Origin: Escherichia coli
Lineage (GTDB): Bacteria > Pseudomonadota > Gammaproteobacteria > Enterobacterales > Enterobacteriaceae
Assembly (NCBI RefSeq): GCF_003991155.1
Contig: NZ_CP031293.1
Strand: one strand, 5' to 3'
DNA length: 64,000 nucleotides
Part shown: positions 20,501-26,084 of the stretch, piece by piece
Layout: each line of letters begins with the position of its first letter
Position numbering within the stretch: the stretch's first letter is position 1
Program-made: the position numbers

Positions 20501-23500
20501 GTTGAACAAATAGGTCGGGGAGAAGCAGGGCGGATTGAACTCGGGGTTGTGGGAACGGCAATGTGGGGACGGATGCGCCCGGTTATGCGGCGATTCCTTA
20601 GAGAAAACCCTAACGTTGAAGTTCTGTTTCGCGAAAAGATGCCCGCGATGCAAATGGCCTTGCTGGAACGCCGCGAACTTGATGCCGGGATCTGGCGAAT
20701 GGCGACAGAACCACCGACTGGTTTTACCAGCTTACGGTTGCATGAATCGGCGTTTCTGGTGGCGATGCCTGAAGAGCATCATCTCTCATCATTTTCCACC
20801 GTCCCGCTGGAAGCGCTACGTGACGAGTATTTCGTTACAATGCCGCCCGTGTACACTGACTGGGATTTTTTGCAGCGAGTTTGCCAGCAGGTGGGATTTT
20901 CACCGGTTGTTATTCGCGAAGTTAATGAACCGCAAACGGTACTCGCCATGGTCAGTATGGGTATTGGTATCACATTGATAGCGGACAGCTACGCGCAGAT
21001 GAACTGGCCAGGTGTCATATTCCGTCCGCTCAAAGAACGCATCCCGGCAGACTTATATATTGTTTATGAAACGCAGCAGGTGACGCCCGCACTGGTTAAA
21101 CTGCTGGCGGCGTTGGCGCAGTAGATGAGAGGCACGGGAACTGCCGGACATAGTTGGTCTGATAAGCGAAGCGCATCAGGCAATTTCGCAAATTGCAGAT
21201 AGCAAAAAAGCGCCTTTAGGGCGCTTTTTTACATTGGTGGGTCGTGCAGGATTCGAACCTGCGACCAATTGATTAAAAGTCAACTGCTCTACCAACTGAG
21301 CTAACGACCCGAAGTGGTGGGTGATGACGGGATCGAACCGCCGACCCCCTCCTTGTAAGGGAGGTGCTCTCCCAGCTGAGCTAATCACCCACTTCGGTAC
21401 TTCACATTTTTACAAGAAATCTAGCTGGCGAGAAAGTGGTGGGTGATGACGGGATCGAACCGCCGACCCCCTCCTTGTAAGGGAGGTGCTCTCCCAGCTG
21501 AGCTAATCACCCACTTCTCAATTTCTTGCTACACGGCGGAGACTACATAAAGTAGTTGGTGGGTGATGACGGGATCGAACCGCCGACCCCCTCCTTGTAA
21601 GGGAGGTGCTCTCCCAGCTGAGCTAATCACCCCCGCTGTGTGGAGTCGCATTATAGGGAGAGTTCAAAATGAGTCAACGCATTTTCTAAAGAAATTGTTC
21701 GTTCGTCGTAAATTTAAGCAAGATGATCGCAAAACAGACCGTGTTGCGCAATTTGTCAACGAAAACAATAATGCGTAAGGTTGCAACCCGAACTACATTG
21801 AGGAATCAGGCGGGAGTGATAGAATATCGCCCACTCAATTTTTCCAGGATTTGCCGGTTGTCGGCATCTTTCTAAACGTAAGGCCATTTCATGAAAATCA
21901 AAACTCGCTTCGCGCCAAGCCCAACAGGCTATCTGCACGTTGGCGGCGCGCGTACTGCTCTTTACTCCTGGCTTTTTGCACGTAACCACGGCGGTGAGTT
22001 CGTGCTGCGTATTGAAGACACCGATCTTGAGCGTTCCACGCCGGAAGCTATCGAAGCCATTATGGATGGCATGAACTGGCTGAGCCTGGAGTGGGATGAA
22101 GGTCCGTACTACCAGACCAAACGTTTTGATCGCTACAACGCGGTGATCGATCAGATGCTGGAAGAGGGCACAGCTTATAAATGCTATTGCTCTAAAGAGC
22201 GCCTGGAAGCGCTGCGCGAAGAGCAAATGGCGAAAGGTGAGAAGCCGCGTTATGACGGTCGCTGCCGCCACAGCCATGAGCATCATGCTGATGATGAACC
22301 GTGCGTTGTACGTTTTGCTAACCCGCAGGAAGGTTCTGTTGTTTTTGACGATCAGATCCGTGGCCCGATTGAGTTCAGCAACCAGGAGTTGGATGATCTG
22401 ATCATTCGCCGTACCGATGGTTCCCCAACCTATAACTTCTGTGTGGTTGTTGATGACTGGGATATGGAAATCACCCATGTTATCCGTGGCGAAGACCATA
22501 TCAACAACACGCCGCGCCAGATCAACATTCTTAAAGCCCTGAAAGCGCCGGTACCGGTTTACGCGCACGTTTCTATGATCAACGGCGATGACGGTAAAAA
22601 ACTGTCCAAACGTCACGGGGCGGTCAGCGTAATGCAGTATCGTGATGATGGTTATCTGCCAGAAGCACTGCTGAACTATCTGGTGCGTCTGGGCTGGTCC
22701 CACGGCGATCAGGAAATCTTCACTCGTGAAGAGATGATTAAATACTTCACTCTGAATGCCGTCAGCAAATCTGCCAGTGCGTTCAACACCGACAAGCTGC
22801 TGTGGCTGAACCATCACTACATTAACGCGCTGCCGCCGGAGTATGTTGCTACTCACTTACAGTGGCACATTGAGCAGGAAAATATCGATACCCGTAACGG
22901 CCCGCAGCTGGCTGATCTGGTGAAACTACTGGGTGAACGCTGCAAGACGCTGAAAGAGATGGCACAGAGTTGCCGTTATTTCTACGAAGATTTTGCTGAG
23001 TTCGATGCCGACGCCGCGAAAAAACATCTGCGTCCAGTAGCGCGTCAGCCGCTGGAAGTAGTTCGTGACAAACTGGCCGCGATTACTGACTGGACCGCTG
23101 AAAACGTTCATCACGCTATTCAGGCGACGGCGGATGAGCTGGAAGTGGGTATGGGTAAAGTTGGTATGCCGCTGCGTGTCGCCGTAACCGGTGCGGGGCA
23201 GTCTCCGGCGCTGGATGTTACCGTTCACGCAATCGGTAAGACCCGCAGTATCGAGCGTATCAACAAAGCGCTGGCTTTTATTGCTGAACGCGAAAATCAG
23301 CAGTAATTAGCGCATAAAAGATAAACGGCAGGAGAGATACCCCTGCCGTTTTTTATTTATCCGGTGCGCCGTAAAACCCCGTCCTTCAGGGCGGGGATAT
23401 AAGGCGCGGTTTTCCACCTGACCAGGTGTTTGCTGTTGTTCAATGTATTGGCGGATGACGGATATTGGCGCACCTCCGCAGCTACTGGCAAAATAGCCAG

Positions 23501-26084
23501 GACTCCACAAAACGCCTTTGTAGTAATACCTGACTGCAATATCTGGTCGATCTCGTCGCAGTCACCTACCCGATACGCCTTTGAGGCTGTTTACCAGACT
23601 GGATATCGCCAGTTTGGGAGGATAGTTAATTAACAAATGGACGTGATCTGGTTCGCCATCCATTTCAACCAGTTCAGCTTCAAAATCAGCACATACATTT
23701 GAAAAGTAAGTGCGTAGTTTTTCTGTCGCGTCATGGTCAAAAATCTGGCGTCGGTATTTGGGACAAAGACCAGGTGAACATGCATCAGGAAAACACAATG
23801 CCTTCCACGCCGGATATCGGTTTCTTTTTTCACAGACCAAAATATAATTTGACCTGTGAAACGACTACAGGCATTTAAATTCCAGTTAAGACCCGGTGGT
23901 CAACAGGAGCATGAAATGAGGCGCTTCGCAGGCGCATGTCGTTTCGTTTTCAATCGTGCTCTGGCGCTTCAGAATGAGAATCATGAGGCCGGTAATAAAT
24001 ACATCCCTTACGGGAAAATGGCTTCCTGGCTGGTTGAGTGGAAAAACGCCACTGGAACGCAATGGCTTAAAGATTCTCCCTCACAGCCATTGCAACAGTC
24101 ACTGAAAGACCTTGAGCGGGCTTACAAAAACTTCTTCCAGAAGCGGGCTGCTTTTCCCCGATTCAAAAAGCGGTGACAGAATGATGCATTCCGCTATCCG
24201 CAGGGCGTTAAGCCCGCTCAGGAAAACAGCCGTATTTTTCTGCCAAAACTTGGCTGGATGCGCTACCGGAATAGCCGTCAGGTCACGGGTGTTGTGAAAA
24301 ATATCACGGTCAGCCAGTCCTGTGGTAAGTGGCACATCAGTATTCAGACAGAAAGTGAAGCATCAACTCCGGTTCACCCTTCAGCATCAATGATCGGGCT
24401 GGATGCTGGCGTGGGTAAACTCGCCACGCTGTCAGATGGCACAGTCTTTGAGCCTGTAAACAGTTTTCAGAAAAACCAGAAGACGCTGGCGAGACTTCAG
24501 TGACAGTTAAGCCGCAAGGTCAAATTCAGCAATAACTGGCAGAAGCAGAAACGCAAAATACAGCGACTGCATTCCCGTATCGCAAATATCCGCAGGGACT
24601 ACCTTCACAAAGTCACAACGACCGTCAGCAAAAACCACGCAATGATAGTCATTGAGGATTTGAAGGTCAGCAACATGTCAAAGTCAGCAGCGGGTACGGT
24701 CAGCCAGCCGGGGCGCAATGTCCGGGCAAAATCAGGTTTAAACCGTTCGATACTGAATCAGGGCTGGTATGAAATGCGCCGCCAGCTTGAGTACAAGCAG
24801 CTCTGGCGTGGCGGTCAGGTGCTTGCTGTTCCGCCAGCGTACACAAGCCAGCGTTGCGCGTGCTGTGGTCATACAGCGAAAGAAAATCGCCTGTCACAAA
24901 GTAAATTCAGATTCCAGGTATGTGGATATACAGCGAACGCCGATGTAAACGGCGCTCGTAACATTTTAGCGGCGGGGCACGCCGTTCTTGCCTGTGGAGA
25001 GATGGTGCAGTCAGGCCGCCCGTTGAAGCAGGAACCCACCGAAATGATTCAGGCGACAGCCTGAACGTAGCAGGGATCCTCGTCCTTCAGGGCGTGGAGG
25101 ATGTCAAGCTGATTCATCTATGTCGAGACGAGCAAGGAAATTACGAATTCCTTCGCGTGACAAAAATTGCGCAACTTTTTCCCGCTCACTGTGAGTCATG
25201 TTGTCTATTGCGCTGATGATTTGCCGATAAGCAGGAGTGCGAATCCCCGGTGCGTATTCGGCAAGGGGTTCTTCGGCTTCCAGAAGCATCGGCGTGTTAT
25301 GGAAGGCTGGCGTGTTCTGAATAAACTCGCAAACTTGCGTATCGACCAGAATAAGTCTGGCACGACCGCCTTTCACGCCGGGAAATTTTTCCGTTTTCCA
25401 GCCTTTTTCTCTGATCCAACGGTTAACAGTTTGTTTAGCCACACCGAGGCATTCAGCCAGTTCTTCGGTGGTCATTTTATTGCGTAATCTTTTCATATTA
25501 TTTGCTATCGCGAATCCCTAAGCGTTGTAATAATCCGATAATCCCTTCCCGCAGAAGCAAGGATGTAAACTGTTTTTGTTCAACTGGCGTCATCTCTTTC
25601 GCCAGTGTCACCAGCAACACTTCAAGCGGCGCATCACCAGACAGGGCAGGCGTTTCTCCCTGACTTTCCGGACGTTCAGCATTGCGAATATATTCACGAA
25701 CCTGTTCATTGACGTGAACCAGTCGGGCTTTGCCACCCTGGACGCCTGGTTTTGGTGACGTTGTCCAGCCTTCCTTGCGTACCCATTTATTAATGGTCTG
25801 GCGGCTATAGCCGGTCAGTCTGGCAAGTTCATCTGGCGTCATCCTCTCCTTGAACATAACAATTCCCTGAATGTATGTGGGTCTATTAGTAGTTCATTTT
25901 ATAACACCACTTTACAGGAAACCGTGACATGAATAACTACTGAATGCGAGCGGTTTTCCAAAATTGTTCATTTGCCTGATTTTTCAGCGATTGAAACTAC
26001 ACGTTGCAATTTGCCGTTGACACATTCGGGCGGAATTCATATGATGCCGCCCGTCAACTCGACAAGCTTTACGTGACGGGGCTA

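What the first reader, a model, noticed from the sequence alone, without database searches (positions are those of the whole stretch)
23357..25105. Decayed IS200/IS605-family element inserted between gltX and yfeD
This is the only clearly accessory DNA in the window. It carries divergent tnpA (Y1 HUH transposase with DHVHLL and QYIEQQ motifs) and tnpB (RuvC-like motifs plus a Cys4 zinc finger). Nearly identical hairpins with a TTCA loop lie at both ends in the same orientation (CCCCGTCC-TTCA-GGGCGGGG at 23377-23396; CCTCGTCC-TTCA-GGGCGTGGAGG at 25078-25100), as expected for the subterminal hairpins of this family. From memory, gltX and yfeD are near-adjacent in K-12, so this looks like a strain-specific insertion. 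The right end abuts or overlaps the last codons of yfeD.
Basis: partly seen in the sequence, partly recalled or inferred. Interest (0 to 1): 0.5.

Follow-up and report, generated by a model that had tools for sequence, protein, structure and literature searches.

The report
Dead IS609 copy between gltX and yfeD
This is a 1,747-bp mutationally inactivated copy of IS609, a well-known E. coli insertion sequence, sitting just after the gltX terminator; it is an ordinary, already-annotated mobile-element relic found at this site in about 10% of complete E. coli genomes.

Summary
Aligning the window to empty sites in K-12 and an O18:H1 strain places the insert at exactly 23361-25107 (1,747 bp). It lies 3' of a TTAT, ends in TCAA and has no target duplication. 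It is 97.4% identical to the IS609 annotated in K-12 MG1655, with the same ends, so it is an IS609 isoform of the IS200/IS605 family.

Both genes are dead. tnpA has lost its start codon and carries a 1-bp deletion, a nonsense codon and a lost stop codon. tnpB has two nonsense codons and a Cys-to-Phe change in its zinc finger. The end hairpins, guide tetranucleotides and cleavage sites match those of other IS609 copies.

The site is occupied in 533 of 5,426 complete E. coli genomes, including O157:H7, and empty in 4,805, including K-12. This heavily decayed allele is in only about 40 records.

The insertion splits the last sense codon of yfeD (GCA|TAA becomes GCT TGA). The element's right end supplies the new stop codon, so the end of YfeD (...DESA) is unchanged.

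How it works follows from the family: TnpA single-strand peel-and-paste, plus TnpB/ωRNA retention. This copy cannot move on its own. Verdict: already known, low interest.

The parts
23323..23351 (.). gltX intrinsic terminator hairpin. It scores as terminator-like on the minus strand and, in empty-site strains, also lies just downstream of the convergent yfeD. The insertion leaves it attached to gltX.
   Evidence: (I1). The T-run and TTAT follow at 23352-23360.
23357..23360 (+). TTAT target, which is the left cleavage site C_L and the predicted TnpB TAM (TTTAT here). It is host DNA and is not duplicated.
   Evidence: TTAT directly precedes the left end at four independent loci. It is retained once in empty sites.
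23361..25107 (+). IS609 isoform, 1,747 bp. The top (active) strand is the window + strand.
   Evidence: Empty-site alignment. 46 differences in 1,748 positions from the annotated K-12 IS609.
23373..23396 (+). Left end: predicted guide tetranucleotide G_L AAAA (23373-23376) followed by the subterminal hairpin IP_L (23377-23396, 8-bp stem with a T.G pair, TTCA loop).
   Evidence: The layout parallels IS608 (G_L AAAG with C_L TTAC).
23418..23848 (-). tnpA pseudogene (Y1 HUH transposase). Lesions: start ATG to ATT (23846), 1-bp deletion near 23761, L96 to stop (23563), stop TAG to CAG (23420).
   Evidence: The RefSeq note on the identical sequence reads 'frameshifted; internal stop'.
23828..23861 (.). 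Palindrome with 17-nt arms, centred between the divergent tnpA and tnpB start codons. It is a possible operator or RBS-sequestering element; this was not tested.
   Evidence: I6.
23856..25064 (+). tnpB (insQ) pseudogene. Lesions: G107 to stop (24174), R216 to stop (24501), C353F in the zinc finger (24913), plus 20 other missense changes. The residues aligning to the RuvC D/E/D triad are retained.
   Evidence: The RefSeq note reads 'internal stop'.
24880..25123 (+). Predicted ωRNA region: a scaffold from the tnpB 3' end through the right end, then a roughly 16-nt guide (25108-25123, GCTGATTCATCTATGT) read from the yfeD flank. This is inferred by analogy only.
   Evidence: ISDra2 precedent. The fold z-score is -2.0. 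The alignment fold gave little covariation. No Rfam family reaches threshold.
25074..25107 (+). Right end: predicted guide G_R GGAT (25074-25077), hairpin IP_R (25078-25097), and cleavage site C_R TCAA (25104-25107). Cleavage falls 10 nt 3' of the hairpin foot, as in IS608.
   Evidence: IS608 geometry.
25104..25496 (-). yfeD. Its stop codon TGA (25104-25106) and the third base of its last codon (25107) are supplied by the IS609 right end. The C-terminus is unchanged (...DESA).

Best explanation
The segment 23361-25107 is a non-autonomous, mutationally dead copy of IS609, an IS200/IS605-family insertion sequence with divergent tnpA and tnpB.

Shown here:
- It entered 3' of a TTAT that sits on the T-tract of the gltX terminator, without duplicating the target.
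- Its top strand is the window + strand. By K-12 coordinates this is the lagging-strand template, which is an inference from synteny.
- It carries the family's cis elements: subterminal hairpins in the same orientation at both ends, a 4-nt guide 5' of each hairpin, and cleavage sites TTAT on the left and TCAA on the right.

Inferred from the family:
- A dimeric Y1 HUH TnpA would bind the hairpins on single-stranded DNA. It would cut at TTAT| and TCAA|, release a single-stranded circle, reseal the donor precisely, and paste the circle 3' of another TTAT.
- TnpB, loaded with an ωRNA transcribed across the right end, would cut the resealed donor joint (TTTAT followed by GCTGATTCATCTATGT). Repair from the sister chromosome would then restore the element.

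In this copy neither protein can be made. tnpA has four lesions. tnpB has two nonsense codons and a broken zinc finger. The copy is therefore immobile unless TnpA is supplied in trans.

The effect on the host is minimal. The gltX terminator is intact. YfeD's C-terminus is unchanged, because the element's terminal TCA reads as a TGA stop on the opposite strand. yfeD is, however, now 1.75 kb from the terminator hairpin that lies just downstream of it in empty-site strains.
For: - Exact ends and no target duplication come from the empty-site alignment.
- The element is 97.4% identical and co-terminal with the annotated K-12 IS609.
- An intact reference copy is annotated as an 'IS609 family transposase'.
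- Family HMM matches are strong, as are PDB matches to ISDra2 TnpB and to IS608 and ISDra2 TnpA.
- Lesions were listed against an intact copy and agree with the RefSeq pseudogene notes.
- TTAT precedes the element at four independent loci.
- The terminal GGAGGATGTCAA is kept in relatives whose TnpB is only 62-92% identical.
- Site occupancy is 533 occupied against 4,805 empty.
- yfeD codon geometry is.
- Mechanism precedents are IS608 guide and cleavage sites; TnpB/ωRNA; donor-joint targeting; an ISGst TnpB with TAM TTTAT.
Against: - Nothing contradicts the identification.
- Transposition chemistry, ωRNA production and the TAM were not tested for IS609 here, and I found no IS609-specific experiments in the papers searched.
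- The ωRNA fold is only weakly supported.
- The right-end hairpin in this copy has a T.T mismatch and is not more stable than shuffled sequence. The same base occurs in copies with intact tnpB.
Confidence: 0.96

Rival explanations
1. The copy is dead as a gene carrier but still mobile. Its intact ends would let a TnpA from another IS609 copy in the same cell excise or transpose it in trans, so it would behave like a long PATE-type non-autonomous element.
For: The left-end hairpin, G_L, G_R, TTAT and TCAA are identical to those of copies with intact genes. The 100%-identical strain 2016C-3878 has three IS609-like places. Intact IS609 tnpA genes exist in E. coli, for example WP_000604943.1.
Against: All other sampled copies have a defective or stop-less tnpA. 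K-12 IS609 never moved in mutation-accumulation lines. I could not inspect the other copies in this genome. The right-end hairpin is weakened here.
Confidence: 0.25
2. The gltX-yfeD TTAT is a recurrent landing site. The window allele and the O157:H7 allele would stem from independent insertions, or from TnpB/ωRNA-assisted re-colonisation of the same site, rather than from one ancestral event.
For: The window copy differs from same-site copies in O157:H7 and NCTC10444 by 47-50 nt. That is no closer than to copies at other loci (37-50 nt), and no substitution is shared exclusively by the same-site copies. There are at least three allele classes at the site: 300 O157-type records, about 40 window-type, and the rest. 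Two of the four sampled sites lie right after terminator-like hairpins.
Against: The insertion point and orientation are identical to the nucleotide, which is most simply explained by one event. IS609 copies show mosaic site patterns typical of gene conversion, which would erase shared history. Flanks are themselves recombinant: gltX is 2.3% diverged but yfeD only 0.8% between the window and O157. A pseudogene drifting neutrally accounts for the 20 private changes.
Confidence: 0.15
3. The polarity is reversed in some lineages. The element would be ancestral at this site, and some 'empty' sites would be precise TnpA excision products rather than never-occupied sites.
For: IS200/IS605 excision is scarless and regenerates exactly TTAT plus the flank. 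An excised site therefore cannot be told apart from a virgin one.
Against: 88.6% of genomes are empty. These include the K-12-type yfeD haplotype, which is 10% diverged, while every occupied site sampled has the O18/O157-type flank.
Confidence: 0.1
4. The relic has been co-opted. It might serve as a new 3' UTR or antisense region for yfeD, or as a source of a regulatory RNA derived from the ωRNA.
For: yfeD now lacks the downstream terminator hairpin, so its transcript could run antisense into tnpB. The last 250 nt carry only 1 of the 20 private substitutions.
Against: One substitution against about 2.9 expected is not significant. No Rfam family or convincing conserved structure was found. Decay is spread across the element. 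About 89% of strains do without it.
Confidence: 0.03

Closest known systems
IS609 of E. coli (K-12 MG1655 copy between ydcL and ydcO: yncK/insP pseudogene plus insQ; intact copy in O157:H7 between yjfZ and ytfB)
   Same: Same length (1,747 against 1,748 bp) and the same first and last bases (CCGGTGCGCC ... GGATGTCAA). 97.4% nucleotide identity. Divergent tnpA and tnpB, a TTAT target and the same hairpins. It shares the K-12 copy's tnpA L96 nonsense mutation. In K-12 the right-end TCA also provides the stop codon of the convergent gene, ydcO.
   Different: Different locus. 20 private substitutions and a 1-bp deletion. tnpB is also dead here (two nonsense codons, C353F), whereas K-12 insQ is intact.
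IS608 of Helicobacter pylori (the mechanistic paradigm of the family)
   Same: Y1 HUH TnpA (PDB 2a6m and 2vhg match). Subterminal imperfect hairpins, a 4-nt guide 5' of each hairpin, an identical right cleavage site TCAA 10 nt 3' of the hairpin foot, and no target duplication.
   Different: The target is TTAT rather than TTAC, with G_L AAAA rather than AAAG, the change expected if the last guide base tracks the last target base. G_R is GGAT rather than GAAT. The left cleavage site lies 16 nt rather than 19 nt from the hairpin. The genes are divergent rather than co-oriented.
ISDra2 (Deinococcus radiodurans) and the ISGst elements: TnpB/ωRNA RNA-guided nucleases
   Same: The TnpB remnant aligns end to end with ISDra2 TnpB (PDB 8bf8 and 8h1j, 2e-51). 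Residues align at the RuvC positions, and the zinc ribbon is present. An ISGst TnpB (TnpB2) uses TAM TTTAT, the same pentamer found here.
   Different: About one third of residues are identical. The TAM and ωRNA of IS609 have not been shown experimentally. The gene here is a pseudogene.

Membership tests
IS200/IS605 family | Encodes a Y1 HUH (IS200-type) transposase | tested here: met
   Pfam Y1_Tnp 3e-42; NCBIfam transpos_IS200 148.8 bits against a cutoff of 55. The HUH motif (HVH) and the catalytic-Tyr helix (RQYIEQQ) are present. The gene is a pseudogene.
IS200/IS605 family | No terminal inverted repeats and no target-site duplication; subterminal hairpins at both ends in the same orientation | tested here: met
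   The empty-site alignment shows a clean TTAT|GCTG joint. The hairpins form a direct repeat (D2).
IS200/IS605 family | Insertion 3' of a fixed tetra- or pentanucleotide that abuts the left end | tested here: met
   TTAT (TTTAT at three sites, CTTAT at one) precedes the left end at four independent loci.
IS200/IS605 family | Single-strand peel-and-paste transposition with precise excision | not testable with these tools
   Inferred from IS608, ISDra2 and ISGst. The top strand lies on the inferred lagging-strand template, which is consistent.
IS609 (the named element) | At least 95% nucleotide identity and the same ends as the reference IS609 | tested here: met
   46 differences in 1,748 positions (97.4%) from the IS609 feature at K-12 1503161-1504908, with identical termini. 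The 95% isoform threshold is recalled from ISfinder practice and was not checked here.
Autonomous (functional) IS | Intact transposase ORF | tested here: not met
   Start codon lost, 1-bp frameshift, L96 nonsense, stop codon lost.
TnpB / OMEGA RNA-guided nuclease | TnpB fold with RuvC D-E-D catalytic residues | tested here: met
   guided_TnpB 368.6 bits against a cutoff of 100. GLDAG, IEDL and NADVN align with ISDra2 GVDVG, GTEHL and HDRDEN.
TnpB / OMEGA RNA-guided nuclease | Uninterrupted ORF with an intact CxxC...CxxC zinc ribbon | tested here: not met
   G107 to stop, R216 to stop, and C353F changing CQAC to FQVC.
TnpB / OMEGA RNA-guided nuclease | Structured ωRNA overlapping the tnpB 3' end and the right end, with the guide read from the flank | tested here: inconclusive
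   Single-sequence fold z = -2.0. In a 7-sequence alignment, 5 of 64 pairs have compensatory changes and the covariation term is about zero. No Rfam match above threshold.

The most novel reading that the evidence does not exclude
The TTAT behind the gltX terminator is a preferred, repeatedly used IS609 landing or homing site. The divergent alleles found there (window-type, O157-type and others) would record independent arrivals. Possible aids are the terminator hairpin exposing single-stranded DNA, or TnpB/ωRNA cleavage of empty sites after horizontal transfer.
Probability: 0.12. Interest if true: 0.3.

Novelty: already known. Interest (0 to 1): 0.08.

Why it matters
It matters little beyond bookkeeping. 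The element is a known IS, and the identical sequence is already annotated as pseudogenes in RefSeq.

There are three modest uses:
- Site occupancy (about 10% of complete genomes, including O157:H7) and the rare decayed allele (about 40 records) can serve as lineage markers.
- The locus shows how IS609 can land inside the last codon of a convergent gene without changing the end of the protein. Its terminal TCA reads as a TGA stop on the other strand, and the same thing is seen at ydcO in K-12.
- The four sampled sites support TTAT/TTTAT as the IS609 target. That would be the predicted TAM if anyone wished to test the intact IS609 TnpB (InsQ).

Tried and rejected
- **Rfam.** A scan of 20000-28000 with permissive thresholds found only tRNAs and sub-threshold noise in the element.
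- **ωRNA covariation.** I used relatives with 62-92% TnpB identity from plasmids. The right-end hairpin and terminal GGAGGATGTCAA are conserved, but there are too few compensatory changes to support a structure.
- **One insertion or several.** I tried to decide this from seven IS609 copies and from flank divergence. Site patterns are mosaic (gene conversion) and the flanks are recombinant, so the question stays open.
- **A misleading count.** The '>=99% identity: 257 records' band cannot be a count of this allele. A query restricted to the segment holding both nonsense codons gives 40 records.
- **Other copies in the same genome.** I could not find the other IS609 copies, because the search tool lists only the best place per record. 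Whether an intact tnpA is available in trans was therefore not tested.
- **Promoter scan.** Inside the element it gave no more hits than shuffled sequence.
- **Literature.** Searches for IS609- or InsQ-specific biochemistry found only catalogue mentions and reports that the element is inactive.
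Full report
**What is there.** The window is E. coli chromosome. gltX runs 21891-23306 (+), and yfeD (25104-25496) and yfeC (25498-25857) are on the minus strand. Between gltX and yfeD lie about 1.8 kb with broken ORFs on both strands. The minus-strand fragments carry DHVHLL and QYIEQQ. The plus-strand frame from 23856 to 25064 is colinear with TnpB but interrupted.

**Exact limits.** K-12 MG1655 and an O18:H1 strain have gltX and yfeD 51 bp apart. 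Aligning them to the window gives three junctions:
- Empty site: ...CCGTTTTTTATTTAT|GCTGATTCATC...
- Occupied, left side: ...TTTAT|CCGGTGCGCC...
- Occupied, right side: ...GGATGTCAA|GCTGATTC...

Neither junction is ambiguous. The element is 23361-25107 (1,747 bp), lies 3' of TTAT (23357-23360), ends in TCAA and duplicates nothing.

**Identity.** MG1655 annotates 'insertion sequence:IS609' at 1503161-1504908. It is 1,748 bp and begins and ends with the same bases. The window element differs from it at 46 of 1,748 positions, or 97.4% identity. An O157:H7 copy between yjfZ and ytfB has an intact tnpA, named 'IS200/IS605-like element IS609 family transposase', and an intact 402-aa TnpB.

The family models agree:
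- Y1_Tnp 3e-42 and transpos_IS200 8e-44.
- guided_TnpB 4e-110.
- OrfB_IS605, the TNB zinc ribbon and HTH_OrfB_IS605.
- PDB matches to ISDra2 TnpB (2e-51) and to IS608 and ISDra2 TnpA.

IS609-like DNA occurs in 5,410 of 5,426 complete E. coli genomes. The identical sequence in strain 2016C-3878 is already annotated as two pseudogenes.

**Decay.** Against the intact O157 copy there are 50 differences. In tnpA:
- The start codon ATG is now ATT (23846).
- One base is deleted near 23761.
- Leu96 is TGA (23563). The K-12 copy shares this mutation.
- The stop TAG is CAG (23420). All other sampled copies share this.

In tnpB:
- Gly107 is TGA (24174) and Arg216 is TGA (24501).
- Cys353 of the second CxxC is Phe (24913).
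- There are 20 further missense changes.
- The residues aligning with the ISDra2 RuvC triad are retained.

Twenty substitutions and the deletion are private to this allele among the seven copies compared. 'Decayed' is correct. The 'Cys4 zinc finger' is in fact damaged.

**Cis elements.** The two hairpins are direct repeats and are unique in the window, with 0.04 matches expected by chance. Compared with IS608 (C_L TTAC, G_L AAAG, C_R TCAA, G_R GAAT; C_R 10 nt 3' of the hairpin foot), IS609 has:
- C_L TTAT, with AAAA directly 5' of the left hairpin. This is the change expected if the last guide base tracks the last target base.
- C_R TCAA, ending exactly 10 nt 3' of the right hairpin foot.
- GGAT 5' of the right hairpin.

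TTAT precedes the left end at four independent loci. In relatives whose TnpB is 62-92% identical, the terminal GGAGGATGTCA(A/C) is kept and the hairpin stem shows some compensatory change. In this copy the right hairpin has a T.T mismatch (25080) and is not unusually stable. The same base occurs in copies with intact tnpB.

**Distribution.** Counts are out of 5,426 complete E. coli genomes:

| Query | Result |
|---|---|
| 130-nt left-junction probe, fully covered | 533 genomes (9.8%), including many O157:H7 |
| Empty-site probe, fully covered | 4,805 genomes (88.6%) |
| Segment with both tnpB nonsense codons, at least 99% identical | 40 records |
| O157-type allele segment, at least 99% identical | 300 records |

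O157:H7 and strain 2009C-3554 have an intact tnpB at this same site. The insertion is therefore lineage-specific and polymorphic, and the heavy decay is confined to a narrow group.

Same-site copies are no closer to the window copy (47-50 differences) than copies at other loci are (37-50), and they share no exclusive substitutions with it. However, site patterns among copies are mosaic, and the flanks are recombinant: gltX is 2.3% diverged and yfeD 0.8% between the window and O157. I favour one old insertion followed by drift, gene conversion and recombination. Recurrent insertion is left at about 0.15.

**Effect on neighbours.** In empty sites yfeD ends ...TCA GCA TAA, and the TTAT target lies on the opposite strand across the last sense codon and the stop. 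After insertion yfeD ends ...TCA GCT TGA. The T and the TGA come from the IS609 terminal TCAA, so YfeD still ends ...DESA. The same geometry occurs at ydcO in K-12.

The gltX terminator hairpin and its T-tract are intact. yfeD now lies 1.75 kb from that hairpin, which scores as terminator-like on yfeD's strand.

**Mechanism.** The following is inferred from the family and was not tested for IS609. TnpA binds the hairpins in single-stranded DNA and cuts at TTAT| and TCAA|. It releases a single-stranded circle, seals the donor without a scar, and inserts the circle 3' of another TTAT. TnpB with a right-end-derived ωRNA would recognise TTTAT followed by GCTGATTCATCTATGT, which is the empty site, and would trigger repair from a sister copy.

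By K-12 coordinates, the top strand here and in the K-12 copy lies on the lagging-strand template, as the family's known bias predicts. This step is an inference. Because both genes are dead, this copy can at most be moved in trans. K-12 IS609 is reported inactive.

**Verdict.** This is a correctly spotted, correctly interpreted and entirely ordinary feature: an already-known IS609 relic.

**In passing.** Against K-12, the IS609 copy is the only insertion larger than about 100 bp in the window. The window also carries a 1,199-bp deletion in ypdA/pyrS that is absent from all 5,426 complete genomes. These include strain 2016C-3878, which was 100% identical to the window in every stretch compared.

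Noticed in passing
window 43176 (junction); residual ORF 42590-43234 (-): A 1,199-bp deletion removes the upstream region and roughly the first 370 codons of the sensor kinase gene ypdA/pyrS. The window matches strain 2016C-3878 at 100% on both sides of the junction. The junction lies between imperfect direct repeats AAAA(T)GGGGATT, suggesting a microhomology deletion. None of 5,426 complete E. coli genomes has this junction.
   Followed up: partly
window about 4996-5000: About 960 bp present in K-12 (2537705-2538665, containing yfeS) is absent from the window.
   Followed up: no
window about 28682-28693: K-12 carries IS186C (2514273-2515617) between nupC and pdeA. The window has no element there.
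   Followed up: no
window 23828-23861: A palindrome with 17-nt arms is centred in the 7-bp gap between the divergent tnpA and tnpB start codons. Its core is TTTCACAG.CCAAA / TTTGG.CTGTGAAA in the intact IS609. It could be an operator or a structure masking the ribosome-binding site. Function unknown.
   Followed up: no
L018 2606-2609 (K-12 1504905-1504908): In K-12 the annotated ydcO CDS overlaps the last 4 nt of IS609. Its TGA stop is supplied by the element's terminal TCA, the same arrangement as yfeD in the window.
   Followed up: partly
window 23420, and the equivalent position in L005-L009: Every sampled IS609 copy except the O157:H7 yjfZ-ytfB copy has the tnpA stop codon changed from TAG to CAG. 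The ORF therefore reads through the left end into the flank, and RefSeq flags these copies as 'missing C-terminus'. Whether such extended TnpA proteins work is unknown.
   Followed up: partly
window 25108-25496 (yfeD) against K-12: yfeD and the intergenic spacer fall into two deep haplotypes. The window and K-12 differ at 39 of 389 nt (10%), against about 2% in the adjacent gltX. Three of the 16 bases of the predicted ωRNA guide target differ in the K-12 haplotype.
   Followed up: partly
IS609 copies: window, L004-L009: Variable sites group the copies in conflicting, physically clustered ways. Examples are five L005+L006 sites within 23865-24251 and three L004+L008+L009 sites at 24075-24398. 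This indicates gene conversion between IS609 copies at different loci.
   Followed up: partly
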